Positions 2,518 through 58,178 of a stretch of 64,000 nucleotides of DNA are shown piece after piece. The notes under the pieces are model-generated. The model saw nothing but the letters and a program-made list of their open reading frames with translations. It was not told the DNA's origin and made no database searches. Source of the stretch: Eledone cirrhosa (Eukaryota); the NCBI GenBank assembly GCA_964016885.1, contig OZ024742.1, positions 268,212,001 through 268,276,000 on the forward strand, written 5' to 3'. Every line of letters starts with the position of its first letter. The first letter of the stretch is position 1. The translations under genes and the position numbers were made by a program.

Positions 2518-2577
<60 letters not shown>
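2518..2577. repeat. (AAT)20 microsatellite joining the 3' ends of R4/Dong (+) and Tx1-A (-)
   Basis: Directly visible perfect repeat between two tail-to-tail elements. Confidence 0.98.
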
Positions 2578-2579
<2 letters not shown>

Positions 2580-2850
2580 TTTCTTTATTAACCACAAGGG
2601 TTTACATAAAGTAGACATTAAGGACAGTGCAGGACAATGCAGGACGGTACAAATGGGCATTTCTGCGTGTAAAAAAAAAAAAAAAAAAAAAAAACAGAGG
2701 ATGTAACAAAAATAACAATGAAAATAACAATGAAAAATTCCCCAATAGGGGGGAGACTTCGGAGGGACATTTGTGGAGAAAGCCCAGTAAAAAGCCACAA
2801 TGACCCTGACCACCAAGGCAAGTGCCCTCTCCCAGTTTTCCACCTTTAGT

Positions 2851-5800
2851 TTACAGATATATACTCAGAGTCGGCCCATTCACTCGGGCCATTCTTGCTT
2901 CTCTCACCCATCTTTCAACAAAATGCTGGGAAGAGAGCACTTCCTTCTCTACTCTGATTTTCCTTTTCAAATGAAATTTGAAAAAGTCAATCAGAGCATC
3001 ACCGAAGAGGTAAGTGCTCGTCTTCAGCCCTTTCAAACGTGTCCACCATACTATCTCTTTCGCCATGGCCACCAGACAGATAAAAACTGCCTGCCCTTCC
3101 CGGCTAAAGGAGGAGGGCGGGGCAATCCTCACGATAGACTCAGATGATAGCTGGATCCGTCCTAAACGCGACAGCAGGTGTTCGACATAAACCCACAAGT
3201 CAGCAATTTTCGGACACTGGACGAGTGCGTGCAGGACGGTTTCGTCGCCCTGCGCGCATCTCGGACATGCCCGGCTGACGGCACCTCCATGCCTGTAGAG
3301 TTTATCCCGAACTGGCAAGGCTCCTCGGTAGCACTGCCAGGCCAGAGATTTCTGGAAGTTGTCCATAGGCCCCGGCCCGAAAGTTCTTCCGAAGAGATTG
3401 GCTAGTTGATTTTCGTCGACGCCTAGAGTTTCCCCAAGTACGTCGTCGCTCTTCCCCTCCACTAATCCTCTATAGAACGCCGAGGTGGAGTTTCCACCGA
3501 TCAAATTGCCCGATTGGTCGAGGGCTGTGAGCGCCTGAAGACATTCCAGTCTCCAGGCGCTCCCTCTCGGTCTTCGCTTGACCCAGGACTGCAGCTCCGT
3601 CAAGGAAACGAGCTGGGGAAAAACGCGTCTAGCAAACGGCGACCACACCTGATCACCGTCGAGGAAGAGGTGGAGATGTCGTAGCCTGAGCGCGTGTCTG
3701 CGCATCATCAGCCACGGCATGCCCAGCCCTCCACGTAGCGGGTGTTGACAACAGATGGACCGCCTGACCATCGGAGCACGTCCCTTCCACAAAAAGCGAA
3801 AGAGCAAACGCTCCAGCGCAGTCAGGCGAGGCTTAGGACAAGGTACGACGGTTAGGCGGTAGCAGATGACAGACGCGATGTACGCGTTAGCCACCTCCGC
3901 TCGACCTTTCAGGGATAGCTTCCTCTCCGCCCATTTCTGGGTGAGAGAAGCCACCCTGCTCGTCACCTCGTCCCAGTTTTTGTCCGTCTGGAGGTCCGGA
4001 CCGAACCAGACCCCTAGCAATTTAACCGGTCCGTCCGTCCAGCGCCCGACGACGCTGTTGGACGGCATGGACCTGCCTCTCCAGGTGCCGAGCTGCAGGC
4101 CCACTGACTTTTCCTGGTTGATCATTGCTCCTGTCACCGCTTCGTATTCTCTTAGTGTAGTGCCGATCGCCTCGATGTGTTTGGCGCTCGACACCACTAC
4201 GGTGACATCGTCCGCATATGCTGACACTGATCTTCCGCATCCTAGTTCGCGCGGGACTCCCCTCAACGTCTCCAGTTTGTGCAGTAATGGCTCGAGAGTC
4301 AATACGTACAAGAGGGACGAGAGGGGACATCCTTGGCGGACCGAGCGCATGATGTTGAACGGTTCCGACAGGTGACCGTTCACTCTCACCACAGAGCAGA
4401 TGTCGCTGTGCATGGCAGCGATCCAGCCTCTGAAGACGGGCCCAAAGCCAGCCGCCCTCAGGACTGCCGCTAGGTAACGATGGTCGACCCTATCGAAAGC
4501 TTTCGACTGATCTAAATTGATCAAGGACCCACCCGTGCCAGGTTCCCTAGCTACCCTCTCTACGATGTATCGCATGAGGTGGAGGTTGTCGTGGATGGAT
4601 CTGTCGGGAATGGCGCATGTCTGCGCCTCTCCCACCAGACCACCAACGACAAGCGCCAACCTCTTTGCTAGCACCTTGGCCAAAATCTTAAACTCTGTGT
4701 TTAGCAGAGTTATGGGCCGGAAATTGTCTATGTTATCCCCCTTGTTCGGATCCTTTCTCAGCAGTGCCACCGCTCCTCGGCTCACAGAACTGGGAATTCT
4801 CCCGTTCTGTTGCCAGTTGCAGTAGACGTCCGCCAAGAGGCCTCCGAACAAGTCTGGCATCTGTACGTAAAGTTCATAGGGCAGACCATCCAAACCAGGC
4901 GATTTACCCCTTGTGCAGCCAGTCATTGCCTCCCTTACTTCAGCGGCTGTTATCGGCTTTTCGCAACACTTCGCCTCAGTGGCCGAGAGCCGCGGCAGTC
5001 CGTCGAGGTAGACACTAAAGTCCATCCCTCTACCCGGCCCCCCGCTGCCCCCGAACAGCTGAGCGAAGTGTCGCTGAAAAGCTTCACACATTTGCCCGGG
5101 ATCGAGTAGCATGCGCCCGTCGTGGTCCACCAAAGACCGGATCGTGGCTTTGTTGCCACGACGCGCCTCCGCCACTCGGGCCCATTGAACGGCTTTCGTC
5201 CCCTCGTGTCTGAGAGCACGCACCCTAGCTCTGACAACGCAGCCTTCGTGCTTTGCATTGAAGAATTGGTCAAGGGCCAATTTCGCCGCAAGCACGTCGG
5301 TCGCAATGCCTTTGCTAAGCGCCTCGTCTAATTTTCTAACTAGTTCTCCCTCTGCTCTATTTTTCTCTATTGCTAAAGCCTTACTAAACCTAATCGATTC
5401 TATTCTAATCGCTCTTTTCAGAGCAAACCACCACTTGTTGTTGACGATGGCCCCCGTCAACGCCCGCTTAACTAGTTCGCTAATCCGGTCTCTGTAGGCC
5501 TTGCGCGCTGGTAAGGACGCGTTTAGCTTCCAGTAGCCGGGTCCTCGTCTATGAAGCCTATCTAAGTCAAGCACACAGATCACGAATTTGTGGTCCGTGT
5601 AGCTGACTATCTTGAATTGTGGACAGCCTATGCTAGACCTATCTATTTCCCTACAAAATACTCTATCTAGATATGATCTGGATGACCCTATGCGGTTTGT
5701 CCAAGTCCACATTGGCACATTCGGGAAATCCAATCGGTACCTGTCAGACAGTTCAAAACGCCTGAGCAGGTTGGTGAGGCTCTTGCACCCTCCACCCCTA

Positions 5801-6270
5801 TCCGCTAATCCCACACAGTCCCAGCGTGCATCTAAGATCCCGTTCCAGTCGCCCACTAACACTAAAGAGCGGGACGTTCCAAGAAAGGTCTCCAGACGCC
5901 GGAAGAAATCAGGCCGCCCTGCTCCTGTCGGGGCATAGACGGCCACTAGCCTGAAAGCTTGCCCGTCTCCGCTGGTCACGTCCAGCACCACCAGCTTACC
6001 CTCTGGGTCCAGGAAGATGGCCCGTATGGCGAGATCCAAACCTCTCCGAAAAAGCACAGCAACTCCTCCACCCGATCCAGGACGGCTGGGAGATGCGTAC
6101 ACATCGTAGCCGCCGAAGATCGGTACGAAGGCCCGTGCTTCGGAGATTCTGGTCTCGCTGATGGCCACTACATCTATGTTTAGTGACCTGAGGTCGTTGA
6201 GCAGGTGACCCTGCTTCCATGACGACCCCAAGCCACGCGCATTTATGCTGCCTATTCTGAGTGAGGTCAT
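2851..6270 (-). CDS. Tx1-A ORF2: APE endonuclease + reverse transcriptase + C-terminal zinc-binding domain (1139 aa)
   Basis: SINARGL, SET, VYAPT, GDWN, SYLDR, TDH (APE); KSPGLDGLP, NFRPITLLN, DQSKAFDRVDH, VRQGCPLS, AYADD (RT); GPGYWKLN and CPRC-x7-H-x4-C are typical of Tx1-type ORF2. Confidence 0.95.
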   Translation of the reverse strand: MTSLRIGSINARGLGSSWKQGHLLNDLRSLNIDVVAISETRISEARAFVPIFGGYDVYASPSRPGSGGGVAVLFRRGLDLAIRAIFLDPEGKLVVLDVTSGDGQAFRLVAVYAPTGAGRPDFFRRLETFLGTSRSLVLVGDWNGILDARWDCVGLADRGGGCKSLTNLLRRFELSDRYRLDFPNVPMWTWTNRIGSSRSYLDRVFCREIDRSSIGCPQFKIVSYTDHKFVICVLDLDRLHRRGPGYWKLNASLPARKAYRDRISELVKRALTGAIVNNKWWFALKRAIRIESIRFSKALAIEKNRAEGELVRKLDEALSKGIATDVLAAKLALDQFFNAKHEGCVVRARVRALRHEGTKAVQWARVAEARRGNKATIRSLVDHDGRMLLDPGQMCEAFQRHFAQLFGGSGGPGRGMDFSVYLDGLPRLSATEAKCCEKPITAAEVREAMTGCTRGKSPGLDGLPYELYVQMPDLFGGLLADVYCNWQQNGRIPSSVSRGAVALLRKDPNKGDNIDNFRPITLLNTEFKILAKVLAKRLALVVGGLVGEAQTCAIPDRSIHDNLHLMRYIVERVAREPGTGGSLINLDQSKAFDRVDHRYLAAVLRAAGFGPVFRGWIAAMHSDICSVVRVNGHLSEPFNIMRSVRQGCPLSSLLYVLTLEPLLHKLETLRGVPRELGCGRSVSAYADDVTVVVSSAKHIEAIGTTLREYEAVTGAMINQEKSVGLQLGTWRGRSMPSNSVVGRWTDGPVKLLGVWFGPDLQTDKNWDEVTSRVASLTQKWAERKLSLKGRAEVANAYIASVICYRLTVVPCPKPRLTALERLLFRFLWKGRAPMVRRSICCQHPLRGGLGMPWLMMRRHALRLRHLHLFLDGDQVWSPFARRVFPQLVSLTELQSWVKRRPRGSAWRLECLQALTALDQSGNLIGGNSTSAFYRGLVEGKSDDVLGETLGVDENQLANLFGRTFGPGPMDNFQKSLAWQCYRGALPVRDKLYRHGGAVSRACPRCAQGDETVLHALVQCPKIADLWVYVEHLLSRLGRIQLSSESIVRIAPPSSFSREGQAVFICLVAMAKEIVWWTRLKGLKTSTYLFGDALIDFFKFHLKRKIRVEKEVLSSQHFVERWVREARMARVNGPTLSIYL

Positions 6271-6305
6271 GTTTAAAATAGAGTGGAAAAGATGGGAAAG
6301 ACCAC

Positions 6306-8402
6306 TTACCGTACTTTTGGTAGAGGAGGGATGGTTTTTACATCCCTTTTCACTTGATCGTCTGGTGAAGGGACCGTTGAATCGTCCCTTCGGCTGGTCG
6401 TCGGCTCTTCTAAGAGAATGTCTGAGTATACTCTTCGATTGATGGTTCCTCCTAGGTCCCTGAAATCACCAACTGCGTTGGGGAATTTCGTTTTAATGTT
6501 TGTGTATTGTTTCTGTGCTATTTTTAGCAGTCTTATGTTAGTTGGCGTTTTGATTGGTGCTGGTATTATGTAGTCCTGTTGTGAAATGTCTGTGTGTTCA
6601 ATTATGTAAGTCATTAGTTTCTTGTTGTGTGTATTTATTGCCGTGCATTTGTTTTTCTGGGGGTGGGGTGTGGTTCTGCTATTTTCTTGTCGTTGTTGCT
6701 GGGTGTGTGTGTTTTGTTGTTGTGTTTGCGATGTTGGTGCTTGTGGTGGTGGTGTTGAAGGTGTTGTTGGCGGTGGGGTTGTCGCCGGTGGTGATGGTGG
6801 TGCTAGTGTGGGTGGTGATGGTGTTGGTGTTGTTGCTGCTGTGGGTCTCTTTGCAGTAGACTTTACCCTTTTCTCATTTCTTTCCTCCCTTTTCAAAGGC
6901 GACGATGCGCTGCTTCTGCGTTTGTGCCTTCTTGCGACCTTTTGCCATCCCTCTCCCACCTCACACTCCATGTCTGATTCTGTGAGGTCGGGGAGGGGTA
7001 CCAGCTCCACTCTTTCACTTGTTGTTGTTGGTGATGTTTGCACTGGAGTCTCTGTTGCAGCTGCATTTGGTATTGCTGTTGTTGTTGTTAATATTTCCAC
7101 TGCTGCTGCTGTTTTTGATTTCCGTGGCGTGGGTATGGGTGCCACGGACCTATCGTTCCTGGTTGCCGCTTGTCCTGTTGCTGGTAGCCGTGGAGCCGGA
7201 TTCGGAAGGAGGGGGGTTTTCTCCTTTCTCAGGGTCTTCTCGTTGCAGAAGGCCCTGAGGTGAGTCTTCGATCCACAGCGAAAGCATTTCGGGCGTTTGC
7301 CCTCAACACTTATGGGCAGTTGAGTGCCGTTATCGAAGTCTATCACATCCGGGATAGCTTCGATGCACTCCTGGTTGGTTTGGATTAGCATCTCAATGGA
7401 GGAGCCGACCCAATCTTCTCTTACTTTTTTCTGTACTTGCAGTACAGTTGTTTTGTCCTCGATTCCGATTAGGACAGACGCGGCCAGCCAAGAAGGGGTC
7501 ATTCCGGGGGGGACGTGGGTCAGTTTGACCCTCACAATTTTTTGCCCGCAGTAGGAGGGCACCAACACCATTTCCTCGCTCCTTAGGGTCACTACTGATT
7601 GGGCCTTTGCCTCCTGGGGTGTGGCAAAAAGTACGTCTACGGTGGCATATTTTTTGCCTCGGGTGATGTGCGTTTTCCGCTGCCACACAGATCCCAAGGC
7701 TTTTTGTATTTGGGCCTCTGTGGCTCTTTCCACCCTACGGGATTTTGTACTTACTGTACGGTACGTGACCGTACAGTGCTCTTGGGTTTTGAAAAATTTT
7801 TCCGCTGCCTTGCAGATTGCTCGGTGTCCGTTTTTTGTCACCATCTTCTTCGCTTCCTCTAATTCCTCATTTGTTATGAGGATTGTTTCCAAGTTTTTCG
7901 CAATACCTGCAAATGAGATTGGTTTTTCTCTGCTGTTGTTGTTGTCGTCAGAGCTGCTGGTACTTTTGTTGTTGCTGCAGGTACTACGACTACTGCCTCC
8001 GCCGCTGTTGCTGTGGTTGTTGTTGGTGTTGCTGCTGCTAATGCTGTTGTTGTTTATGCTGCTGGTGATGCTGTTGCGGCTGCTACTGTTGTTTTCATTG
8101 TCACTGTTGCTGTTGTTATTACGGCTGCTACTGCTATTATTCCTGACGTCAGACGAATGAACTGGGTTTTCGTATTTCCCGCACACCTGTTTCGTCGCTG
8201 TCGTCGTCGTCGTGGAGAAACCTTGCACGCTTTGCACGAGACTTTTCTTTTCTTTCGTCACTTGCGAAAGAGAAGGGAGGGAGAGAGACACATTTAAAGA
8301 AGGGAGGGAGAGAGACAATCTTCTCTCTGCTGTAGTGATGATTGAGGAAGAAGAAGACGGAATGAGTGGGAGTGACGTATGAAATTTCTTTTTCGTAGCC
8401 AT
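6306..8402 (-). CDS. Tx1-A ORF1: gag-like nucleic-acid-binding protein with CCHC zinc knuckle (698 aa)
   Basis: CFRCGSKTHLRAFC (C-x2-C-x4-H-x4-C); lies immediately upstream of ORF2; N/S- and P/T-rich low-complexity tracts. Confidence 0.88.
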   Translation of the reverse strand: MATKKKFHTSLPLIPSSSSSIITTAERRLSLSLPSLNVSLSLPSLSQVTKEKKSLVQSVQGFSTTTTTATKQVCGKYENPVHSSDVRNNSSSSRNNNSNSDNENNSSSRNSITSSINNNSISSSNTNNNHSNSGGGSSRSTCSNNKSTSSSDDNNNSREKPISFAGIAKNLETILITNEELEEAKKMVTKNGHRAICKAAEKFFKTQEHCTVTYRTVSTKSRRVERATEAQIQKALGSVWQRKTHITRGKKYATVDVLFATPQEAKAQSVVTLRSEEMVLVPSYCGQKIVRVKLTHVPPGMTPSWLAASVLIGIEDKTTVLQVQKKVREDWVGSSIEMLIQTNQECIEAIPDVIDFDNGTQLPISVEGKRPKCFRCGSKTHLRAFCNEKTLRKEKTPLLPNPAPRLPATGQAATRNDRSVAPIPTPRKSKTAAAVEILTTTTAIPNAAATETPVQTSPTTTSERVELVPLPDLTESDMECEVGEGWQKVARRHKRRSSASSPLKREERNEKRVKSTAKRPTAATTPTPSPPTLAPPSPPATTPPPTTPSTPPPQAPTSQTQQQNTHTQQQRQENSRTTPHPQKNKCTAINTHNKKLMTYIIEHTDISQQDYIIPAPIKTPTNIRLLKIAQKQYTNIKTKFPNAVGDFRDLGGTINRRVYSDILLEEPTTSRRDDSTVPSPDDQVKRDVKTIPPLPKVR

Positions 8403-8617
8403 GTTGTTTTTTGTTTAAAATGAAATTTTGGGTACAAAACCCCAATAACTGATTATTTAACCCCGAAGGGCCAACTAACGGACAGAAAGACCCCTCTCAC
8501 GAGGAGGAGGGTGTCTTTATCAACAATTTGGTTCAAGTTTTAAACAATTTACAATTGTTTTAAAGGTTAAAAAATACTATACCTTACAGAGCCGAGCCTC
8601 CGTCAACCATGGCATTC

Positions 8618-8641
8618 AATAATAATAATAATAATAATAAT
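8618..8641. repeat. (AAT)8 spacer between tandem Tx1 elements
   Basis: Visible between Tx1-A 5' end and Tx1-B 3' end. Confidence 0.97.
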
Positions 8642-8918
8642 GATTTCATTTATTAGCCACAAGGGCCGACATGTAGGGGACAATACAAAGACAGGGACAG
8701 TGGGGGTTTACAATAAGGTCGAGTAAAAGTGCACAATGGCAAAACTAATTTAACAATGAAAATATAAAAATATAAAATAAACTATGCAAAATATAACAAA
8801 ATAAATTCCCCGATAGGGGGTGGACGACCCTGGGGTGATTCGGGTACCCCACCAATCCTGAACGACCCTGCGCTTCTAGGGCACCCAGGAGAGCACCCCT
8901 CTCCTCAAGTTAGCCAGC

Positions 8919-11900
8919 CTATAGGCGCATGGTGAGAGTAGGCCGATTCACACGAGCTATTCTCGCTACATTCACCCACCTTTTAGCAAATGTACTGGGG
9001 GGCAGCACTTCTCTCTCCACCCTCACCCTCCTTTCCATGTGAAACTTGAAGAAGTTGATGAGGGATTGGCCGAAGAGAAAAGTGTCTGTCTTTAGTCTTT
9101 TCAACCTGGTCCACCACATAATCTCTTTCGCAACTGCCACCAGACAGAGGAACATTTCCTGCTCTTCGTGACCTAAGGAAGGTGGCGGCTCGATCTTCAC
9201 TATGGACCCGGCCGGTAACCGGATTCGTTCCACACGCGACAGTAGCTGTTCGACATAACTCCACATGTCAGTAATGCACGGACATTGGACAAGTGCGTGC
9301 AGAACGGTTTCGTTGTTCTGTGCGCATCTTGGGCAGGTCCGTCTGACAGCATTTCCGTGCCTGTAGAGTTTATCCCGAACCGGCAGTGCCCCCCGGTAGC
9401 ACTGCCAAGCGAGGGATTTCTGGAAATTGTCCATCGTCCTCGGCTCAAAGGTCCTCCGGTACAGACTGGTCAGTTCGACTTCGTCGAGGCCCAAAGCTTC
9501 TCCGTGTGCGTCATCGCACTTGCCCACCACTAATCCTCTATAGAACTCGAGAGTGGAAGTTCCACTGATCGCATTGCCCGCTTGGTAGAGGGCAGTGAGT
9601 GCCTGGCAACATTCCAGGTGCCAGTCACCCAGTCTCGGTCTCTTCTTGACCCAGGACTGCAGCTCAGTCAAAGAAATGAGCTGCGGAAAGGCCCGTCTGA
9701 TAAACGGCGACCACACCTGTTCACCATTGAGGCAGAATATCTGGAGATGTCGCAGCCTCAACGCATGTCTGCGCATCATTAGCCACGGCATGTCCAGCCC
9801 TCCGCGTAGAGGGTGCTGGCAGCAAATGGACCGCCTCACCAACGGAACTTGTCCCCTCCACAAGAATTTGAAGAGGAGCCGTTCCAACTTGACGAGGCGC
9901 GGACGGGGGCAAGGCACGACGGTTAGGCGGTAGTAGATGACGGACGCGATGTACGCATTCACCACCTCCGCTCGACCTTTCAGTGATAGCTTCCTCCCAC
10001 CGCATTTTTGGGTGAGACTGGCTACTCTGCTCGTTACCTCGTCCCAATTCTTTTCCACCTGGAGGTCTGGTCCGAACCAAACCCCGAGCTACTTTACCGG
10101 TCCGTCCGTCCAGCGCCCCACGACGCTGTTGGACGGCATGGGCTTGCCTCTCCAGGTTCCGAGCTGCAAGCCCACCGACTTTTCCGGGTTAAGTTTGGCG
10201 CCTGTCAACCTTTCATATTCCTTCAATAAGGTGCCGACCACCTCAATTTCTGAGGTGTTCGACACCATCACGGTGATGTGGTCCGCAATAAGCCGGCACC
10301 GCTTTTCCACGTCCCGGTTCGAGCGGGATGCCCTGCAACAGCTCCAGCTTCCGCAGTAAAGGCTCGAGAGTCAATACGTACAGAAGGGAAGAGAGAGGGT
10401 AGCCTTGACGGACCGATCGGGAGAGCCGAAATGGTTCCGAGAGGTGGCTTCTGAAGACAGGGCCGAAGCAAGCTGCTTTGAGGACAAACTGCAGATACCG
10501 ATGGTCGACCCTATCGAATGATCTAAATTGATCAGTGCCTCACAGAAGCCAGGTTTACACCCTACCCTCTCTATGATGTATCGCATGAGGTGGAGATTGT
10601 CGTGTATGGACCTGGCTGGGATTTCGCAAGTTTGCGCCTCCCCAACCAAATCCTTGACGACAAGCGCCAATCTCTTTGCTAACACCTTGGCCAGAATCTT
10701 AAAATCTGTGTTGAGCAGAGTTATGGGCCTGAAGTTGTCTAATGTATCCCTCTTGTTCTCGTCTTTCCTTATCAGCGTCACCACTCCCCTGCTCACAGAA
10801 CTGGGAATACTCCCATTCTGCTGCCAGTTGCAGTATAGAACTTCGAGGAGTTCGGAGAACAAGTCTGGCATATTTACGTGAAGCTCGTAGGGTAGGCCAT
10901 CCAAACCGGGTGAATTGCGCCTCATGCAGCCGACAAGGGCGTCCTGAATTTCGGCTGAAGTTATCGGCCTTTCGCAGCGCTCAGCGTCGACCGTCGAGAT
11001 GCGCGGCAAGCCGTCAAGGTAGGGACTGAAATCCGCTACTCTCTCTGACTCGCCACTCTCCCTGAACAACCGAGCAAAGTGCTGACGAAAGGCCTCACAC
11101 ATCCGTTTGGAATCGCTTATTTCGTGTCCGTCTCGGTCCGCCAAAGTCCGAATTGTGGTTTTATTACCACGCTGCGCCTCCGCCACGCGGGCCCATCGAA
11201 CAGCTTTAGTTCCCACGTTTCTCAGCGCACGCGACTTAGCTCTGACAATGCAACCTTCGTGTTTGACATTGAAGAAATGGACTAATGCCATTCTCGCCGC
11301 TAGCACGTCAGTTGCGATGCCACTACAAATAGCCTCGTCTAACTTATCTACCAGCTCCCCCTCCTTTCTATTTTTCTCTAACGCTAGTTCTTTGCTGAAC
11401 TCTATCGAAGTTACTCTAATCTCTCTTTTAAGACCCACCCACCATCTGTTGTTGATGATCCCCCCTGTCAACTTTTGCTTAACTAACTTATTGACTCGGT
11501 CCCTGTAAGCCTTACGTGCCGGAAATGATATGTTCAGCTTCCAGTAACCCGGTCCTAACCTACGCGTGTTATTTAGGTCAACCGTACAGAGCACAAATTT
11601 GTGATCTGAATAGGCGACCGTCTTAAAAAGTGGACAGCCCACACTATTTCTATCTATTTTCCAAATGAAGATCCTGTCTATATACGATCTAGATGACACC
11701 ATTCGGTTGGTCCATGTCCATACTGGCACATTGGGGAAATCTAGTCGATACCTGTCAGACAGTTGGAACTGGCTGAGTAGGTGCTTGAGGCTTTTGCACC
11801 CCCCGCTCCTAACGGCTACTCCCACACAATCCCAGCGTGCGTCTAAGATGCCATTCCAGTCCGCCGCTAAAAGTAAAGGGCGAACGTACCCAGAAAGGTC

Positions 11901-12280
11901 TCCAGGCGCCTAAAGAAGTCAGGTCGTCCGGCCCCTGTAGGGGCGTAGACGGCCAGCAGTCTAAAGGCACCACCTTCGCTACTGATCACATCCAAGACCA
12001 CCAACTTACCGCCCGGGTCCAGGAAGATCGACCTTACCTCGGGATCCAGTCCTTTCCTAAACAGCAGTTCCACCCCACCCCCCATTCCCGGCCCGCTAAC
12101 AGATGCGAAGATCTGATAGTCGTCGAAAATGGGGGCTAGTGCGCGCGTGTCGGAAATTCTGGTCTCCCTTACGGCAATCACATCCATTTCCAGCGACTGG
12201 AGGTCTTTGAGCAGGCGAACCTGCTTCCAGGGTGACCCCAGGCCGCGAACATTTAAACTTCCTACTCTTAATATGGCCAT
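8919..12280 (-). pseudogene. Tx1-B1 ORF2 (APE-RT), broken into several frames
   Basis: ORFs 11867-12280, 10371-11825, 10089-10310, 8919-10058 are collinear with Tx1-A ORF2. Confidence 0.9.
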
Positions 12281-12311
12281 ATTGGTAAGCTAATAGAGAG
12301 AGGGGGAAGGT

Positions 12312-14260: not shown

Positions 14261-14510
14261 AATTTTCTTTTGGTGGGGAAGCGATTTTTCTCAAAGTTTG
14301 AAAAAATAAATCTGAATATTCGGGCTTAAAGCCCGAATATAGAGAGGTATTCCTCTCTTTAAATCAAGATGTGTACCTTAAGTTCCGTTAACGGCAAGAA
14401 AATACAAAAAAATGACACTTTAAAACAGCTTAAAGTTACGAAACTTTTCCCCCGCAGATTTGTACTGTCTTCACACATGTGCGGCCATAATAATAATAAT
14501 AATAATAATA

Positions 14511-16007
14511 ATGGACGATCTTAAGCTCTTCGGGAAGAGTGAGAAGGAGTTGGATGTGCTTGTTGACACTGTCCGTATTTTCAGCAATGATATATGTATG
14601 CAATTTGGTATTAGTAAGTGTGGAGTCACTGTGATGAAGAGGGGTAAATTCAGCAGAAGTAACGGAATCCAGGTACCAACAGGTGAGATGATAAAGGAAA
14701 TTGACTCTGAAGAAGGATACATGTATTTGGGTATTCTGGAGGCTGCTGACATCAAGAACAAAAAAATGAAGGAATTGATAAGAACTGAATACATTCGGAG
14801 AATAAGGAGCGTATTAAAGTCACATCTGAACAGTAGGAATGCCATAAGTGCAGTAAATTCCCGAGCTGTGTCTATTATTAGGTACAGTGCGGGAATTCTG
14901 AGATGGAATGTTGCTGAACAAAAAGAAATGGATAGGAAGACTAGGAAGCTATTGACTATCTACAACATATTCCACAAGAGGAGTGATGTCGATTGACTCT
15001 ACTTAAGGAGATCTGAAGGTGGAAGATGTCTTATCAGCATAGAGGACTGTGTTCAGATGGAGAAAAACAACCTACATAAATTCGTGACTGATAGTAAGGA
15101 GCCAATGCTCAGAACTGTACTGAAGGAGGGGACAATAGGCCAGGGGATGCCCAAGGAGGAAATAACATCAAGGAGAAAGAGCAGCCTTCAGGAAAAATCC
15201 CTTCATAGTACCTTCTTTGAGAAAACTGAATTTAGAGATCCACAGACATGGAACTGGTTGAAAAGAGGAGACCTTAAAAAGGCTACAGAAGGAATGTTAA
15301 TGGCTGCGCAGGAGCAGGCCCTCAAAACGAAGTGGTTGAAACATCATATTTACAAGGAGGAGGCTAGCCCACTGTGCAGGATCTGTGGAGAGAGAGAGGA
15401 GACTGTGGCTCACATTGTAACACCTAGCCCAGACTCTCTATAAGAGCTGGAGACATGATGTGATGGGCAGGGTGATCCACTGGCACCTATGCAAAGTAAA
15501 CAATTTACCACATTCTGAGAAGTGGTATGAGCATAAGCCAGAGTCGGTGATAGAAAACGATCAGGTGACGGTGCTGTGGGATTTTAGGATACAGACGGAC
15601 AAGAAACTGAAACACAATAGACCTGACCTGGTGGTTGTGGACAAAGAAAAAAGATCGTGCCTGATTGTGTATGTAGCCTGCCCATTCTACACGAGAGTGC
15701 AAGAGAAGGAGAGGTAGAAAATTAACCGATATCAGGACTTAAAGTGGGAGGTAAAAAGGATTTGAAACTGCCATGAAGTCAAAGTGATCCCGATTGTCAT
15801 AGGCGCACTAGGGACTATCTCAAAAAGTTTCCAGGGATGGTTAAAGAAAATTGGCCAATTCACGCTTTTTGGAACGCTTCAAAAGGCATGCTTGCTGGGA
15901 ACAGCAACAACCCTCCGATACGTCCTGAATTTCTGAGGCTGCAGGTATTGGCTTGATATTCATCTCAACAAACTTTCCAGTTAACTAACATCAATGACTG
16001 AGACTCA
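14511..16007 (+). mobile_element. 5'-truncated R4/Dong element, same family as 1-2517
   Basis: Starts at MDDLKLFGK directly after (AAT)n 14487-14512; near-identical to 1008-2515; ends in (AAT)n. Confidence 0.93.
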
Positions 16008-16042
16008 AATAATAATAATAATAATAATTATTATTATTATTA

Positions 16043-16221
16043 TTTCTACGTTTGGCACAAGCCAGCAATTACCCAGTGCTTTAATGGCAATTTATTTTAT
16101 CGACTCCGTAAGGATGAAAGGCAAAGTTAACCTCGGCGAGATTTGAACTCAGAATGGTAAGGGCCGTATCTCTGTACGTCAAAGCATGGCGTCCGACCCT
16201 CTACCGATACTGCCAATCCAC
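16043..16221 (-). mobile_element. tRNA-derived SINE
   Basis: Minus strand A-box TGGCAGTATCGG, B-box GAGTTCAAATC, central GCCTTTCATCCTTACGGAGTCGATAAAAT, tail TTGTGCCAAACGTAGAAAT. Confidence 0.88.
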
Positions 16222-16224
16222 AAT

Positions 16225-16669
16225 GATTTCTTTATTGGCCACAAGGGCTGACATCAAGAAAAGCATTATAACGGCACAGGACGGTACAGGACGGTACGAT
16301 GTGCGTTTTGTGCGTGTAAATATTTTTATTATTTATATAAGAAAATAAAAAAGGACATAGACACATATATATATAAACAATAAACATGAAAATTGAAACA
16401 ATGAAAAATTCCCCATTAAGGGGAAACCTCCGAGGATGACTCGTGGCGAAAACCACACAAAAGAGCACGCCAACCTGACCACCAGTACAAGCGCCCTCTC
16501 TCAATTTTTCCATTTCTCAAGCTACAGACGTATATTCAGAGCGGTCCCGTTCACTCGGAACATTCTCGCTACATTCACCCACCTTTCAACAAACTTGTTA
16601 GAAGGCAGCACTTGCCTCTCCACCCTGATTTTCCTCTTCAAGTGAAACTTGGAAATGTTAATTAAGGAT
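16225..16669 (-). mobile_element. Tx1-A-related 3' fragment (ORF2 end + 3'UTR)
   Basis: Encodes KFHLKRKIRVERQVL..ARMFRVNG; ends CCCTTGTGGCCAATAAAGAAATC-ATT. Confidence 0.88.
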
Positions 16670-16775
16670 TCCTCTGTTTTTTTACATGCAAAAATGCCCA
16701 TTTGTACCGTCCTGTATTGTCCTGTGCCGCCTGTAATGTTTTTCTTGATGTCAGCCCTTGTGGCCAATAAAGAAA

Positions 16776-16777
<2 letters not shown>
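16670..16777 (+). mobile_element. Tx1-A 3'UTR terminal fragment, inverted relative to neighbour
   Basis: Matches reverse complement of about 2578-2700; followed by (ATT)n 16778-16812. Confidence 0.85.
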
Positions 16778-16812
<35 letters not shown>

Positions 16813-16813
<1 letters not shown>

Positions 16814-18308
16814 GTTGCATTTAACTTGCTTTATGTTCATACGAGTTATCACCAAGTCACAACCAGTGACCTCAAGAGACAACAAGGCCCGCCATGTTCA
16901 AGAAAGAACATACATACACACACATGCATCTTTAGGAGTTTAGACTTGTGATGTACTTATATTGACATAATCTTCCTTAGTATATTGGCAGTTCCCATTA
17001 GTACTATCTTTTGTATTTCTCCTATACGCGGGTTTCCTGGGATTTTCGATAAGTAATCATTAGACCCCTTAGGTATCATTCCTAGAGTGCTTACAACCAC
17101 TGGTATTGTTTTAGTTCTCAATTTCCACATTTTTCTAATTTCTATCTCCAGGTCCTTATACTTGCTCAATTTTTCAAATGTTTTTATAGATACATTCTTG
17201 TCTATTGGAACGGACATATTAATTAGCAGGCATACCCGCTTTTAAAGTCCTTCAATATTATATCAGGTCTATTTGCATCTATTTTTCGGTCTGTTTGGAT
17301 GCTAAAGTTCCACAAGATTGAGATATGATCTTTTTCAAGTATGGGAGGTGGTTGATGCTCCCAACAATTCTTTTGATGGGGAAGGTCAAAATGCTTACAC
17401 ATTATTCAATGTATGTATTGTGCAGCTCTGTCATGCCTGTTTAGGTATTCGGTTGGAGCTATAGGACTGCACATTGAAATTATATGGTCAATGGTCTCTG
17501 GTTGTTTTTTGCATACACGGCATAATGGGTTGTATCCATTATTAATTATGTTGGCTTGGTAATAATTGTTGGCAGACACTGATCTTGTGCTGATATAATC
17601 AGTCCTTCAGTCTCCGATTTCAGTCCAGAGGATGTCAAACACTGATGGGTTAGAGTTTTGTCAACATCAGGATTGTTAGCTCTTTCTGTGTGTTTTCCAT
17701 ACAGAGGCTTGTCTTGCCATTTCTTAGCCAGTTTCTGTAGCAGTTCTTTCTTTGCTGTTACTTTTACCTGCTTGGCTTTTTCTGTGTTTTCCATTTCAGC
17801 AGTAAATGGGACTTCTGAAATGTGTAGTCCATTACTGTATCTTTGTGCATCTGTTGTAATGGAGTATGATCCGTTGATGCTTTCGTGCTTCAAAACGAGT
17901 TTGATCATCCAATCATGTGATTCCCTTAGATATATAGATAATCCAATTGTTGCAGTTTTCAACGCAATATCTAAGTGGATTAACCCACGTCCTCCTTCTT
18001 TCCTATGGAGATATATTCTATCTGTATCTGCCTTAGTGTGATGCATTCTGTGCATGGTTAAGAATTTTATAATTTTTGCATCGAGCCTACGGATCTCTGT
18101 GCTTGACCAGTTGATGACATTGTAACTGTAGGTTACTACTGGTATGGCAAGCATGTTTATGGCATCGATCCTATTCCTTGAATTCAATTCCGTTCTTAAG
18201 ATTGCTCTTACTCTGCGGTAACATTCCTTCCTTATCCTTTCCCTCATTGTCGAGTGCTTGATTCCGTCTCCTTCACAAACACCTAAATATTTGTATGTTT
18301 CCTCTTGA
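16813..18308 (-). mobile_element. 5'-truncated R4/Dong element, second family
   Basis: YKYLGV, GGRGLI, ETEGLIISAQDQCL, EKLSKYKDLEIEI..W, IQKIVLMGTANILR; 3' end in (AAT)n on its own strand. Confidence 0.9.
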
Positions 18309-18834
18309 AAGAGTAGGAAATTTTCCTCTGTCTGGTGGCAGTTGCGAAAGAGATTATATGGTGGACCAGGTTGAAAAGACTAAAGACATACACTTTTCTC
18401 TTCGGCCAATCCCTCATCAACTTCTTCAAGTTTCACCTGGAAAGGAAGGTTAGGGTGGAGAGAGATGTGCTGCTCCCCAGTACATTTGCTAAAAGGTGGG
18501 TGAATGTGGCGAGAATGGCTCGTGTGAATGGGCCTACTCTGACCATGCGCCTATAGGCTAGCTAACTTGAGGAGAGGCGTGCTCTCCCTGGATGCCCTAG
18601 AAGCACAGGGTGGTTCAGGAATGGTGGAGCACCCGAGTCACCCCAGGGTCATCCACCCCCTATCGGGGAATTTATTTTGTTATATTTATGCATAGTTTAT
18701 TTTATATTTTTATATTTTCATTGTTAAATTAGTCTTGCCATTGTGCACTTTTACTCGACCTTATTGTAAACCCCCACTGTCCCTGTCTTTTATTGTCCCC
18801 TACATGTCGGCCCTCGTGGCTAATAAATGAAATC
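18309..18834 (+). mobile_element. Tx1-B 3' fragment
   Basis: ORF 18335-18556 near-identical to Tx1-B ORF2 C-terminus; full 3'UTR; (ATT)n 18835-18857. Confidence 0.92.
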
Positions 18835-18857
18835 ATTATTATTATTATTATTATTAT

Positions 18858-21800
18858 GGCCGCACATGTGTGAAGACAGTACACATCTGCGGGGGAAAAG
18901 TTTCGTAACTTTAAGCTGTTTTAAAGTGTCATTTTTTGTATTTTCTTGTCGTTAACGAAACTTAAGGTGCACCTCTTGATTTAAAGAGAGGTATACCTCT
19001 CAATATTCGGGCTTTAAGCCCGAATATTCAGATATATTCTTAAAAACTTCGAAAAAAATCGCTTCCACACCAAAAACAATTATGGAAATGTTCGACCTTG
19101 AAACGGTAAGCAACGTTCAGGTCAAAAGTTTAAAGGCAGCCACTGTAGATTTCACCACGACTACGACGGCTACAGTCATACCTGTCATCCACTCTACTGA
19201 ATATGAAGGCAAAACTCAACCTTCTGTGATAGCAGCAGTATCATCTGAAAACGACATCACCACCACCGCCACCACCACCACCACAACAACAATTCAGAGC
19301 AATAACGACAATAACACCGACAGCTTCAATGTAAACACGGATGGCGGTGGCAACAGTATCGACAAACAAAAGGACAACACCAATAACAACAGCAAGCATG
19401 ACAACACCAGCAATAAGAGCATCAGAGTCACCACATTTGCTGCAGCAGCAGCAAAACAAAATGCTTATTGAATATTGTTATTGATATTAGCGATAAAGAC
19501 GAACAGTTGGACAAAGCGTGGAGGCTAATTAAACGGGAGAATTCCTGGGCAAATCTGACCATCACGGACGAGACAATAGCGGCCATGCAAAGGAGGACGG
19601 TGTTCTTTCGATGTATTTCGGTGCAGACACGAAAAGTGGAACTTGCGAGCCAATCAGAGGTCGAGGCTGCTTCGGAGTACATCGGAAGTAACATAGAGTA
19701 CAAAGCAAGAGGCAAACAGTTCGGTACCATCTCGGTACTGTTCAAAACCGAGGCACTCGTTATTAAGCACTCGGTGACCCCCTGCAGAACGGAACGCATT
19801 ATCATGCATCCGTCCTACATGGGTAAAAGGACAGTAAAGATACGCATTCCCAGCATCCCACCAGGAATGAACATATGGTGGCTGCTGGGATGCGTAATCG
19901 AGGAGGGGACAGACACTACCCTCCTGGATATCAAAAGGACAGAGAGAGAAGACTGGTCCGGAATGGATTTGGAGATTCTTCTCCAAATGAAACCGGAGGA
20001 TATGAATAACATCCAGGATTTTCTCGCCTGCAGGACGGGACAACAATCCAACTAATCATTGTCGGAAGAAGGCCACGCTGCTTCGTCTGCGGGCAAGCAA
20101 CGCATCTTCAAGCCTTCTGCCCTCAGCGCAAAAATGCAGGGGGTCGCAAACTTCCTTTGTTGCTAACGCCAGTGTCAGCACGGAAAGCTGCACCACCAAC
20201 ACCACCAAAATAACACCAACAAAAACACGGACACCAACATCAAAAACAGCCGGATCACAACCAACACGAAAACCAATCCAAGGAGAAAACGAGGAAAGCT
20301 CTCCCACTCGCCCTACCCCCTCCAATTATACACATAGACAAAACAATAAACGCACACACAGACACAGAGACACTCACAGATACAGACCCTTTGTCTTCCA
20401 GCAGCGAAGATGAAGGAAAACCCAAAAGTGCCAAAAAACAGAGAAAACTCACAAAAAAAAAAAGCCCCAACAAAACGCAAAAACATACACAACAAAAAAT
20501 ACAGACACCACTAACGCAAACACTTCCCCAATAACAACATCACCAACAGCAACATCGACACCACCTCCACAATCCCCGAAACGCAAACAACCTAAACAAA
20601 CACAAGTACACATAAACACACAAATACCTGAAATTGCATACACCACACCTACAACAAACATAGACATACCCGAAACAACACCATCAAAACCATCACCACC
20701 ACAGTCACCAAAACGAAAACAAATAAAACCCCACCAACAAAATGTTAATAACTTCGTGCTTGTCAGAGGGCCAACGATAAACTGATGCCCTCTTAGCACG
20801 AATCGAGGACATTCAAACAGATGGGAGATTTTTGAACTGAGCACATTTTGCGTGCCAGAAGATTCGCTTCTGGTCCGAATGTCACTCAATTCCTTCAAAG
20901 AAATTCGAGAGAGCTTTCCTCAAGACGTTGGAACCCCGAATGTGAAACCCACGTCAAGACTTTTAAAGGGCTTCCCAAAAGAAATCTCACCAACCATGGA
21001 GGTCGAACCACCCGACCTTCACAAGACCCCGGGAGGTAAGTAAACCTTCCCTCTCTCTCTTAGCTTACCAATATGGCCATATTAAGAGTAGGAAGTTTAA
21101 ATGTTTGCGGCCTGGGGTCACCCTGGTAGCAGGTTCGCCTGCTAAACGACCTCCGGTCGCTGGAAATGGAGGTGATTGCCGTCAGCGAGACCAGAATTTC
21201 CGTCTGTTAGCATGCCGGGAATGGGGGATGGGGTGGTAGTGCTGTTTAGGAAAGGACTGGATCTCGAGGTAAGGTCGATCTTCCGGGACCCGGACGATAA
21301 GTTGGTGGTCTTGAATATGAGCAGTAACGAAGGTGGTGCCGTTAGACTGCTGGCCGTCTACGTCCCTATAGGGGCCGGACGACCTGACTTCTTTAGGCGC
21401 CTGGAGACCTTTCTGGGTACATCTCGCATTTTACTGTTAGCGGGCGACTGGAATGGCATCTTAGACGCACGCTGGTATTGTGTGGGAGTAGCCGTTAGGA
21501 GCGGGGGGTGCAAAAGCCTCAAGCACCTACTCAGCCAGTTCCAACTGTCTGACAGGTATCGACTAGATTTCCCCAATGTGCCAGGATGGACATGGACCAA
21601 CCGAATGGTGTCATCTAGATCGTATATAGACAGGATCTTCATTAGGAAAATAGATAGAAATAGTGTAGGCTGTCCACTTTTTAAAACGGTCGCCTATTCA
21701 GATCACAAATTTGTGCTCTGTACGGTTGACCTAAATAACACGCGTAGGTTAGGACCGGGTTACTGGAAGCTGAACATATCATTTCCGCCACGTAAGGCTT

Positions 21801-24667
21801 ACAGGGACCGAGTCAATAAGTTAGTTAAGCAAAAGTTGACAGGGGGGATCATCAACAACAGATGGTGGGTGGGTCTTAAAAGAGAGATTAGAGTAACTTC
21901 GATAGAGTTCAGCAAAGAACTAGCGTTAGAGAAAAATAGAAGGGGGGGGGGGGGCTGGTAGAAAAGTTAGACAACTGACGTGCGAGCGGCGAGAATGGCA
22001 TTAGACCATTTCTTCAACGCCAAACACGAAGGTTGCATTGTCAGAGCTAAGAAACGAGGGAACTAAACCTGTTCGATGGGCCCGCATGGCGGAGGCGCAG
22101 CGTGGTAATAAAACCACAATTCGGTCTTTGGCGGACCGAGACGGACACGAGATAAGCGATTCCAAGTGGTGTGTGAGGCCTTTCGCCAGCACTTTTCTCG
22201 GTTGTTCAAGGAGAGTGGCGAGTCAGAGAGAAGCGGATTTCAGTCCCTACCTTGACGGCTTGCCGCGCATTTCGACGGTCAACGCTGAGCGCTGCGAAAG
22301 GCCGATTACTTCAGCCGAAATTCAGGACGCCCTTGTCGGCTGCATGAGGCGCAAGTCACCCGGTTTGGATTGCCTGCCCTACGAGCTTTACGTAAATATG
22401 CCAGACTTGTTCTCCGAACTCCTGCAACTGGCAGCAGAATGGGGGTATTCCCAGTTCTGTGAGCAGGGGAGTGGTGACGCTGATAAGGAAAGACGAGAAC
22501 AAGAGGGATACATTAGACAACTTCAGGCCCATAACTCTGCTCAACACAGAGTTTAAGATTTTGGCCAAGGTGTTAGCAAAGAGATTGGCGCTCGTCGTCG
22601 AGGATTTGGTTGGGGAAGCGCAAACTTGCGCAATCCCAGCCAGGTCCATACACGACAATCTCCACCTCATGCGATACATCATAGAGAGGGTAGGGTGTAA
22701 ACCTGGTTTCGGTGGGGCACTGATCAACTTAGATCAATCGAAAGCATTCGATAGGGTCGACCATCGGTATCAGGAGTTTGTCCTCAAAGCATCTGGCTTC
22801 GACCCTGTCTTCAGAAGCTGGATCGCTGCAATGCACAGTGGCATACGCTCGCTGGTCAAGGTTAATGGCCAACTCTCGGAACCATTTTGGCTCTCCCGAT
22901 CGGTCCGTCAAGGGTGCCCTCTCTCTTCCCTTCTGTACGTGTCGAGTCTCGAGCCTTTATTGCGGAAGCTGGAGCTGTTGCAGGGCATCCCGCTCGAACC
23001 GGGACGTGGAAAGGCGGTGTCGGCTTATGCGTATGACATCACCGTGATGGTGTCGAACACCTCAGAAATCGAGGTGGCCGGCACCTTATTGAAGGAATAT
23101 GAAAGGTTGACAGGCGCCAAACTTAACCCCGAAAAGTCGGTGGGCTTGCAGCTCGGAACCTGGAGAGGCAAGCCCATGCCCTCTAACAGCGTCGTGGGGC
23201 GCTGGTCGGACGGACCGGTAAAGTTGCTCGGGCTTTGGTTCGGACCAGACCTCCAGGTGGAAAAGAATTGGGACGAGGTAACGAGCAGAGTAGCCAGTCT
23301 CACCCAAAAATGGGCTGGGAGGAAGCTATCACTGAAAGGTCGCGCGGAGGTGGCGAATGCGTACATCGCGTCCGTCATCTACTACCGCCTAACCGTCGTG
23401 CTTTGCCCCCGTCCGCGCCTCGTCAAGTTGGAACGGCTCCTCTTCAAATTCTTGTGGAGGGGACAAGTTCCGTTGGTGAGGCGGTCCATTTGCTGCCAGC
23501 ACCCTCTACGCGGAGGGCTGGACATGCCGTGGCTAATGATGCGCAGACATGCGTTGAGGCTGCGACATCTCCAGATATTCTGCCTCAATGGTGAACAGGT
23601 GTGGTCGCCGTTTATCAGACGGGCCTTTCCGCAGCTCATTTCTTTGACTGAGCTGCAGTCCTGGGTCAAGAAGAGACCGAGACTGGGTGACTGGCACCTG
23701 GAATGTTGCCAGGCACTCACTGCCCTCTACCAAGCGGGCAATGCGATCAGTGGATTTTCCACTCTCGAGTTCTATAGAGGATTAGTGGTGGGCAAGTGCG
23801 ATGACGCACTCGGAGAAGCTTTGGGCCTCGACGAAGTCGAACTGACTAGTCTGTACCGGAGGACTTTTGAGCCGTGACGATGGACAATTTCCAGAAATCC
23901 CTCGCTTGGCAGTGCTACCGGGGGTCACTGCCAGTTCGGGATAAACTCGACAGGCACAGAAGTGCTGTCAGACGGACCTGCCCAAGATGCGCACAGAACA
24001 ACGAAACCGTTCTGCATGCACTTGTCCAATGTCCGTGCATTACTGACTTGTGGAGTTATGTCGAACAGCTACTGTCGCTTGTGGAACGAATCCGGCTATC
24101 GGCCGAGTCCATAGTGAAGATCGAGCTGCCACCTTCCTTAGGTCAGGAAGAGCAGGAAATGTTCCTCTGTCTGGTGGCAGTTGCGAAAGAGATTATATGG
24201 TGGACTAAAGACAGACACTTTTCTCTTCGGCCAATCCCTCATCAACTTCTTCAAGTTTCACCTGGAAAGGAGGGTGTGGGTGGAGAGAGAAGTGCTGCAC
24301 CCCCCCCCCCAGTACATTTGCTAAAAGGTGGGTGAATGTGGCGAGAATGGCCCGTGTAAATGGGCCTACTCTGACCATGCGCCTATAGGCTGGCTAACTT
24401 GAGGAGAGGGGTGCTCTCCCTGGGTGCCCTAGAAGCGCAGGGTGGTTCAGGATTGGTGGGGTACCTGAATCACCCCAGGGTCGTCCACCCCCTATCGGGG
24501 AATTTATTTTGTTATATTTATGCATAGTTTATTTTATATTTTTATATTTTCATTGTTATATTAGTCATGCCATTCTGCACTTTTACTCGACCTTATTGTA
24601 AACCCCCACTGTCCCTGTCTTTTTATTGTCCCCTACATGTCAGCACTTGTGGCTAATAAATGAAATC
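18858..24667 (+). mobile_element. Full-length Tx1-B copy 2, frameshifted (inverted relative to copy 1)
   Basis: Same 5' end GGCCGCACATGTGTG; ORF1 pieces 19082-21043; ORF2 pieces 21073-24388; ends AATAAATGAAATC-ATTATTATT. Confidence 0.93.
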
Positions 24668-24679
24668 ATTATTATTTTT

Positions 24680-24782: not shown

Positions 24783-24784
24783 TA

Positions 24785-24815
<31 letters not shown>

Positions 24816-56519: not shown

Positions 56520-58178
<1,659 letters not shown>

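What the first reader, a model, noticed from the sequence alone, without database searches (positions are those of the whole stretch)
2578..24676. Two Tx1-clade families apparently specific for (ATT)n, stacked in arrays with TAA-targeting R4/Dong elements in the opposite orientation
Seen: all three full-length Tx1 copies have (ATT)n on their sense strand at both 5' and 3' ends, and all three Tx1 fragments end in ATT. The R4/Dong copies with clear 3' ends have (AAT)n on their sense strand. The two clades therefore share one microsatellite in opposite orientations, building about 25 kb of contiguous LINE sequence. Established: Dong elements target TAA repeats and several Tx1 families are sequence-specific. 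Inference: ATT-specific APE endonucleases in a mollusc, with each insertion regenerating the target.
Basis: partly seen in the sequence, partly recalled or inferred. Interest (0 to 1): 0.75.

Follow-up and report, generated by a model that had tools for sequence, protein, structure and literature searches.

The report
ATT-seeking jumping genes share Dong's repeats
Thousands of copies of several related jumping genes in this probably octopod genome sit in ATT repeats, always facing the opposite way to an unrelated jumping gene (Dong-like) in the same repeats, likely because their enzyme nicks a short ATT motif and each insertion copies it; repeat-seeking is a known lifestyle, here with a target not found in the papers searched.

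Summary
Observation confirmed and genome-wide. ATTATT lies directly before 2320 of 2369 family-A 5' ends, 1633 of 1710 of a third family (D: A's ORF2, another ORF1), and 51 of 53 family-B ends lie in ATT tracts. Dong-like ends carry AAT; no end of either group was found on the wrong strand. Refinements: (1) the inferred nick site is short (C/T then ATTA), as shown by a SINE that shares the LINE 3' hairpin and inserts outside long tracts; (2) only 14 of 28 truncated copies have ATT 5', and none of the window's three fragments does; (3) single-family tandem arrays arise partly by local duplication; (4) the window array is about 37 kb and switches polarity at 16,680. Endonuclease specificity and Tx1-clade placement are inferred, not tested. 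This scan found the same system before on other DNA of this genome (8 notes listed). Known lifestyle, apparently new target.

The parts
1..2517 (+). Dong1, R4/Dong-type LINE, 3' part (RT, CCHC, restriction-like endonuclease motif); continues left of the window
2518..2577 (.). (AAT)20 tract shared tail-to-tail by Dong1(+) and Tx1-A(-)
2578..8617 (-). Tx1-like family A, full length, 6040 bp, both ORFs open; 3' end has a CUUGU hairpin and AATAAA
2851..6270 (-). Family A ORF2, 1139 aa: APE endonuclease, RT, C-terminal CCHC
6306..8402 (-). Family A ORF1, about 698 aa, one CCHC knuckle
   Evidence: no Pfam hit above cut-off
8618..8641 (.). (AAT)8: 5' flank of A and 3' tail of B1
8642..14488 (-). Tx1-like family B copy 1, full length, ORFs broken by stops and frameshifts; 74% nt identity to A over ORF2
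14489..14512 (.). (AAT)8 shared head-to-head by B1(-) and a 5'-truncated Dong1(+)
14513..16007 (+). Dong1, 5'-truncated, 92.6% identical to 1008-2550
16008..16044 (.). (AAT)7 tail shared by Dong1(+) and SINE(-), then a slipped (TAT) run at the SINE end
16045..16221 (-). SINE with a Tx1-like 3' hairpin
16225..16680 (-). Tx1-like family C 3' fragment, ends in a single ATT
16681..16777 (+). Second C-type 3' fragment, fused head-to-head to the first; the array's polarity switches here
16778..16812 (.). (ATT)11 shared tail-to-tail by the C fragment(+) and Dong2(-)
16813..18308 (-). Dong2, second Dong-type family (45% aa identity to Dong1 in RT), 5'-truncated, fused without ATT to the B fragment
18309..18834 (+). 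Family B 3' fragment
18835..18855 (.). (ATT)7: tail of the B fragment and 5' flank of B2
18856..24667 (+). Family B copy 2, full length, ORFs broken; 91% identical to B1
24668..24679 (.). (ATT)3 plus T run, repeated at 24778: likely duplication made when the SINE entered B2's tail
   Evidence: sequence
24680..24777 (+). 5'-truncated SINE
24778..24815 (.). Interrupted (ATT) tract shared by the SINE(+) and Dong3(-)
24816..26790 (-). Older, decayed Dong-type copy (Dong3), right end of the array

Best explanation
Several APE-type LINE families, likely of the Tx1 clade, sit in (ATT)n in one fixed orientation and Dong-type LINEs sit in the same tracts in the other, likely because the Tx1-type endonuclease nicks the AAT strand at a short motif and each insertion duplicates that target. 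Inferred steps: (1) first nick on the AAT strand at 5'-TAAT/purine (top strand C/T then ATTA); (2) the LINE mRNA, cut behind the AATAAA that lies 6-7 nt before its end, would carry several AUU units that pair with the nicked strand, favouring long tracts; (3) a second nick 9-20 bp away, probably at a T/A step, gives the duplication and, inside a pure tract, the fixed ATT|element junction; (4) both new junctions are again targets for Tx1 families, for the SINE and, from the other strand, for Dong, so polarised chains grow. The SINE shares the LINE's 3' hairpin and likely borrows this machinery, with a short tail and short targets. Single-family tandem runs are likely lengthened further by local duplication.
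For: 5' flanks: A 2320 of 2369; D 1633 of 1710; B 34 of 53 exact and 51 of 53 in a tract. Strand rule over distinct 3' ends in all fetched loci: Tx1 149 ATT, 0 AAT, 34 neither; Dong 81 AAT, 0 ATT, 5 neither; first 30 of 1141 Dong 5' ends: 27 AAT, 0 ATT. 5'-truncated copies, which cannot carry the element's 5' end: 14 of 28 have (ATT)3 within 25 nt against 0.22-0.23% background. Duplications with non-ATT letters, starting at the element's last base: 16 of 44 truncated LINE copies (9-19 bp; base before is C/T in 15 of 16) and 21 of 37 SINEs (9-20 bp; start ATTA in 20 of 21; C/T before in 18 of 21; mismatched-pair control 4%). Shared hairpin with CUUGU loop: 25 of 28 cells paired, 3 of 4 pairs with changes on both sides. 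Intact APE catalytic motifs in A; 11 of 20 full-length A copies have ORF2 open for 1160 codons or more. Window neighbours are different families or 91% identical, so independent insertions.
Against: No nicking assay and no empty site seen. 14 of 28 truncated copies lack ATT at the 5' side (6 have other simple repeats, 3 are fused to Dong, 5 other). 28 of 44 truncated copies in the short-tract set show no duplication, and that set was selected for ATTATT, so the first six letters of its duplications are circular. Full-length copies with a short 3' tract show no 9-30 bp duplication other than a tandem junction (1 of 14), and two show about 51 bp duplications; L115 and L176 have one ATT at the 3' end and a pure tract at the 5' end. 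One B copy has no ATT flank (L047/L096). The hairpin test rests on 7 hand-picked rows and 4 pairs, and single-strand folding was weak (z -2.0 to +0.3). The AUU tail on the mRNA is inferred from sequence only.
Confidence: 0.78

Rival explanations
1. Full-length RNA carries a few AUU units at its 5' end (transcription starting in the upstream tract); the cDNA end pairs with the nearest pure ATT run, which fixes the junction phase and restricts full-length insertion to long tracts, as in R2 elements whose RNA keeps upstream 28S sequence.
For: 96-98% exact ATT|G junctions in A and D against 494 of 1141 exact TAATAA in Dong; 91 of the first 95 A 5' ends have five perfect units (lists compared by eye); no short duplication in full-length copies, two about 51 bp ones; R2 precedent (PMC3774820, Discussion part 1 read).
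Against: A second nick at the only pyrimidine-purine step of a pure tract (T/A) gives the same phase with no RNA leader. One interrupted tract tested occurs 8 times, all in one locus, so no dispersed 5' transduction was seen. No RNA data.
Confidence: 0.3
2. The endonuclease is only loosely AT-rich/T-A specific and all ATT specificity comes from pairing of the RNA tail with the nicked strand.
For: SINE targets are short and degenerate after ATTA(T); L1 endonuclease reads DNA structure more than sequence (PMC1950540, passages).
Against: The base before the duplication, which the tail cannot read, is C/T in 15 of 16 LINE and 18 of 21 SINE cases; no LINE end lay on the AAT strand in 183 ends, though pairing alone would also predict this.
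Confidence: 0.3
3. Arrays grow mainly by unequal exchange or assembly duplication between ATT tracts, not by repeated insertion.
For: In single-family arrays neighbours differ by at most 1 base in 1.4 kb in 4 of 8 pairs against 15 of 473 non-neighbour pairs, and junction interruptions are copied.
Against: The window array and most fetched loci mix families (A, B, C, D, two or three Dong types, SINE); one 7-copy array holds two sequence types 10-12 bases apart.
Confidence: 0.12
4. ATT is only an element-made tail and the cluster is local.
For: Long ATT tracts are rare outside these elements: of 8 tracts of five or more units in the blind sample, 6 abut a Tx1/Dong hit and a seventh lies beside one, so many tracts are element-made.
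Against: Genome-wide 5' flank counts, ATT before truncated copies, and duplications that begin with no tail at all.
Confidence: 0.03

Closest known systems
Kibi (TC)n, Koshi (TTC)n and crocodilian (TTCC)n/(TTTC)n Tx1 families (PMC4494074, passages read; PMC3812793, passages read)
   Same: APE-type, L1/Tx1-group LINEs inserted in microsatellites; flank share far above the 20% used there to call a family target-specific.
   Different: Target is (ATT)n, not listed for any Tx1 family in the passages seen; host is a mollusc; the tract is shared with an RLE element. Relationship to these families was not tested by a tree.
Dong, DongAg, DongBg (R4 lineage, TAA-targeted; PMC3812793 and PMC3774820, passages read)
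   Same: The window's Dong1-3 have RT, CCHC and a PD..D..K-type motif and lie in (AAT)n; a mollusc Dong is already known.
   Different: Nothing new in targeting; here they share tracts with an APE family in the opposite orientation.
SART and TRAS of Bombyx mori (PMC7265360, abstract and Introduction read)
   Same: Two LINE families inserted in one simple repeat on opposite strands; endonuclease swaps there change the target.
   Different: Both are APE/R1-clade and telomeric; here the pair is APE plus RLE and the tracts are dispersed and largely element-associated.
SINEU with Tx1-Mar (PMC4494074, passages read)
   Same: A SINE tied to a Tx1 family by shared target preference.
   Different: Here the link is a shared 3' hairpin plus the same duplication signature, and the SINE uses short ATTA motifs.
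L1-Tx1 and Dong-R4 families counted as recently active in Octopus vulgaris (PMC13282606, passages and Table 1 read)
   Same: Both groups are known and young in an octopus genome.
   Different: The main text has no occurrence of 'target'; no flank analysis was seen. Supplements were not opened.

Membership tests
Tx1 clade (L1 group) | APE endonuclease at the ORF2 N-terminus with catalytic residues | tested here: met
   PF03372 E 6.7e-14; aligns to L1-EN with N, E, Y, D-x-N, D and DH motifs kept
Tx1 clade (L1 group) | RT closer to L1 than to RLE-type elements; C-terminal CCHC | tested here: met
   Best solved-structure match L1 ORF2p E 6e-52, R2 proteins E-22 or weaker; PF13966
Tx1 clade (L1 group) | Two ORFs, ORF1 with a CCHC knuckle (feature recalled, not from a call) | tested here: met
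   One C-x2-C-x4-H-x4-C motif in ORF1 of A
Tx1 clade (L1 group) | RT phylogeny grouping with named Tx1 families (Tx1L, Kibi, Koshi, Keno) | not testable with these tools
   No named Tx1 protein came back; named hits were an Argonauta hypothetical protein (73%), unnamed turtle proteins (30-43%) and one unnamed algal protein
Microsatellite-specific Tx1 families | More than 20% of flanks of one sequence type (criterion of PMC4494074) | tested here: met
   98% (A), 96% (D), 51 of 53 (B)
Microsatellite-specific Tx1 families | Target chosen by the element's endonuclease | not testable with these tools
   Inferred from duplications only
Kibi or Koshi themselves | (TC)n or (TTC)n target | tested here: not met
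   Flanks are ATT; TTC at 2 of 28 truncated 5' junctions only
R4/Dong | RT followed by CCHC and restriction-like endonuclease motif | tested here: met
   Translations (motif recognised from memory); RT PF00078
R4/Dong | (TAA)n target on the sense strand | tested here: met
   27 of 30 5' ends, 81 of 86 3' ends
R4/Dong | 5' HDV-like ribozyme as in B. mori Dong | tested here: inconclusive
   No ribozyme family hit in 3 Dong and 3 Tx1 loci; Rfam models may miss it
R4/Dong | RT phylogeny with named R4/Dong elements | not tested
   No named reference at hand

The most novel reading that the evidence does not exclude
An ATT-targeting Tx1 lineage whose full-length copies close their 5' end by pairing an RNA-borne (AUU)n leader with the target, and which together with Dong and one SINE makes and keeps most long ATT tracts of the genome: an APE and an RLE element supplying each other's targets from opposite strands.
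Probability: 0.3. Interest if true: 0.65.

Novelty: new variant of a known kind. Interest (0 to 1): 0.45.

Why it matters
It adds a target to the short list for sequence-specific APE endonucleases and offers a young system (identical copies on different chromosomes, many open ORF2s) in which one machinery leaves two footprints: long tracts for the LINE, short C/T-ATTA motifs for its SINE. That contrast makes the open question of how much targeting comes from the nuclease and how much from RNA-DNA pairing directly testable. It also explains chains of tens of kilobases and about 3% Tx1-like sequence in a blind 0.44 Mb sample, which matters for assembly and repeat annotation in these large genomes. 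It is not a new kind of system.

Tried and rejected
Empty-site test: reads and contigs laid on one copy (L203) gave no joint skipping the element; joints at repeats are dropped by the tool, so no conclusion. No RNA holder listed. Atlas look-up not available. No named Tx1 reference, so no tree. Rfam scan of six loci gave only sub-threshold microRNA hits on simple repeats. 5' transduction of an interrupted tract: one tract found only in its own locus; a related pattern hit 11 places in 6 loci whose flanks could not be fetched, inconclusive. Special double-priming mechanism for head-to-head Tx1/Dong fusions without ATT: rejected as unnecessary, since about 12 of 20 full-length A copies have a head-to-head Dong upstream anyway (by eye), so 5' target deletion explains 3 of 8 non-repeat junctions. 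All 40 hits on one strand: taken as a ranking artefact, since pattern counts are balanced. Rows dropped before the truncated count: L118 (other subfamily upstream), L146 (rearranged), L152 (full length with deletion), L154 and L159 (5' end interrupted); the 60 loci were chosen among the first 100 listed 3' ends for lacking a matching A 5' end, so they are enriched for truncated and D copies. Kojima and Fujiwara 2004 and Xiong and Eickbush 1993 were not held. Nine literature searches found no ATT-specific Tx1 family; Repbase and subscription papers could not be searched, and supplements were not opened.
Full report
Setting. The window is G000:C3:268,212,001-268,276,000 of a 3.0 Gb genome. The nearest named relative of the ORF2 RT is an Argonauta hypothetical protein at 73% identity, so the host is probably an octopod; that is inference.

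Anatomy. From the left: Dong1(+) 1-2517, (AAT)20, family A(-) 2578-8617, (AAT)8, family B1(-) 8642-14488, (AAT)8, truncated Dong1(+) 14513-16007, (AAT)7, SINE(-) 16045-16221, C fragment(-) 16225-16680, C fragment(+) 16681-16777, (ATT)11, truncated Dong2(-) 16813-18308 fused to a B fragment(+) 18309-18834, (ATT)7, B2(+) 18856-24667, (ATT)3, truncated SINE(+), an ATT tract and a decayed Dong3(-) to about 26,790. Left of the window the chain goes on for about 10.6 kb with a family D copy(-), Dong2(+) and the start of Dong1. The array is thus about 37 kb and made of two halves of opposite polarity joined at 16,680/16,681. A has both ORFs open, with APE, RT and CCHC domains; B1 and B2 are broken. 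The best solved-structure match is L1 ORF2p. The Dong copies carry RT, CCHC and a restriction-like motif (motif recalled).

Genome-wide flanks. Exact pattern counts over the whole genome: ATTATT directly precedes 2320 of 2369 A 5' ends and 1633 of 1710 5' ends of family D. D was not in the finding: it shares A's ORF2 and 3' end but has another 5' UTR and ORF1. For B, 34 of 53 are exact; of the other 19, 17 lie in an ATT tract with shifted or mutated last bases, one in AT-rich DNA and one in neither. A/D 3' ends number 6107 by one exact pattern. Background: ATTATT at 0.089% of strand positions in 400 kb picked blind. Of the first 30 of 1141 Dong 5' ends, 27 have (AAT)3 within 25 nt and none has ATT; only 494 of 1141 have an exact TAATAA junction. 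Over all distinct 3' ends in the fetched loci, Tx1-type ends gave 149 ATT, 0 AAT, 34 neither, and Dong ends 81 AAT, 0 ATT, 5 neither; these loci were fetched around such elements and partly selected for short tracts, so they are not a random sample.

Is the ATT target or tail? Of 60 copies fetched by their 3' ends (chosen for lacking a matching A 5' end), 27 were full length, all with ATT 5' flanks; 28 were truncated, 14 with (ATT)3 within 25 nt against 0.22-0.23% background; 5 were set aside. I then took copies whose 3' tract breaks after two units (335 in the genome; 58 resolved). Sixteen of 44 truncated copies, all under 1.5 kb, have a 9-19 bp duplication with non-ATT letters that starts at the element's last base; the base before it is C or T in 15 of 16. 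The ATTATT start is fixed by the selection, but its duplication on the 5' side is not: the repeat is target DNA and no tail is needed. Twenty-eight of 44 show no duplication.

The SINE. An abundant SINE ends in the same small hairpin (loop CUUGU) as families A, B and C; in 7 hand-picked rows 25 of 28 cells pair and 3 of 4 pairs change on both sides; folding energies alone are weak. Earlier notes of this scan pointed to this partner and its hairpin; I tested both here. In the blind regions plus the rest of the window, 21 of 37 SINEs have informative 9-20 bp duplications, 20 of 21 starting ATTA and 18 of 21 preceded by C/T; the mismatched-pair control gives 4%. None of 37 SINEs has five ATT units at its 3' end, against 45 of 60 LINE copies. 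So the same footprint appears on short motifs for the SINE and on long tracts for the LINE.

Mechanism. Shown: orientation rule, flank counts, duplications, shared hairpin. Inferred: first nick at 5'-TAAT/purine on the AAT strand; pairing of an AUU-containing RNA end (the LINEs have AATAAA 6-7 nt before the end, the SINE does not), which would favour long tracts; a second nick 9-20 bp away, probably at T/A, which in a pure tract gives the fixed ATT|element phase; and regeneration of target on both sides for all partners. Full-length copies fit this less well: of 14 with short 3' tracts only a tandem junction showed a duplication of 30 bp or less, and two showed about 51 bp. An RNA-borne 5' AUU leader, as for R2 RNAs that keep upstream 28S sequence (PMC3774820, Discussion part 1), is the main rival for that step; one test of 5' transduction found none.

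Arrays. The window's neighbours are different families or 91% identical, so they are separate insertions. Single-family runs differ: in a 7-copy A array and two pairs, 4 of 8 neighbour pairs differ by at most one base in 1.4 kb against 15 of 473 other pairs, and junction interruptions are repeated, which points to local duplication or a shared source. Identical copies also lie on different chromosomes, and 11 of 20 full-length A copies keep ORF2 open for 1160 codons or more: the family is young. Long ATT tracts are rare away from these elements: 8 in the blind sample, 6 abutting a Tx1/Dong hit, a seventh beside one.

Comparison with what is known. Microsatellite-specific Tx1 families target (TC)n, (TTC)n, (TTCC)n and (TTTC)n (PMC4494074 passages; PMC3812793 passages); Dong targets TAA, also in a snail; SART and TRAS share one repeat on opposite strands (PMC7265360 Introduction); L1-Tx1 and Dong-R4 are counted as recently active in Octopus vulgaris with no mention of targets in the main text (PMC13282606 passages; PMC9115989 passages, mention a Dong element only). 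Nine searches found no ATT-specific Tx1 family; the 2004 survey and Repbase could not be read, and supplements were not opened. The element works like Kibi and Koshi; membership of the Tx1 clade rests on domain layout and L1-group similarity, without a tree.

Verdict. A real, genome-wide feature, already noted by this scan on other DNA of the same genome. Known strategy, apparently new target, with a cross-clade opposite-strand pairing and a SINE that exposes the likely nick site. New variant of a known kind; interest 0.45.

Noticed in passing
L155, L160 and 1710 places in G000: Family D shares A's ORF2 and 3' end but has a different 5' UTR and ORF1 (about 40-50% aa identity in conserved parts): an ORF1 swap with the target unchanged.
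   Followed up: yes
G000:C3:316.81-316.86 Mb (L198-L201, L013-L017); C1:441.098-441.143 Mb (L338): Head-to-tail arrays of about 7 A copies with near-identical neighbours and repeated junction interruptions; in the first, the interruption matches sequence at the truncated Dong junction.
   Followed up: partly
window 18308/18309; L066, L069, L116, L162, L166, L307, L309, L311, L323: Head-to-head fusions of truncated Dong and truncated Tx1 copies with no ATT between; compatible with 5' target deletion.
   Followed up: partly
L121, L134, L326, L332, L339, L341, L343, L060: A recurring flank (GT/AT microsatellite followed by a degenerate ATT/GTT run) is hit again and again by Tx1 copies; probably the end of another repeat family.
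   Followed up: no
L012, L019, L120, L126, L128, L141, L176, L344: Compound (TTC)n(ATT)n tracts beside Tx1 ends; may mark a sister family or another element with a TTC target or tail.
   Followed up: no
L118, L128, L050: Further Tx1 subfamilies between A and B (79-82% identity to either) also flanked by ATT or TTC.
   Followed up: no
L045/L046; L336/L337; L174/L175: Pairs of loci with the same element and the same flanks 0.2-1.2 Mb apart: segmental duplications or assembly duplicates.
   Followed up: no
window 56,527-58,180: A lone decayed Dong-type fragment beside a SINE, outside the array.
   Followed up: partly
window 37,235-37,890; 44,222-44,702; 49,868-50,579: Tandem SINE copies separated by their own target duplications.
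   Followed up: partly
L168: A truncated A copy with a short inverted piece at its 5' junction, as twin priming would give.
   Followed up: no
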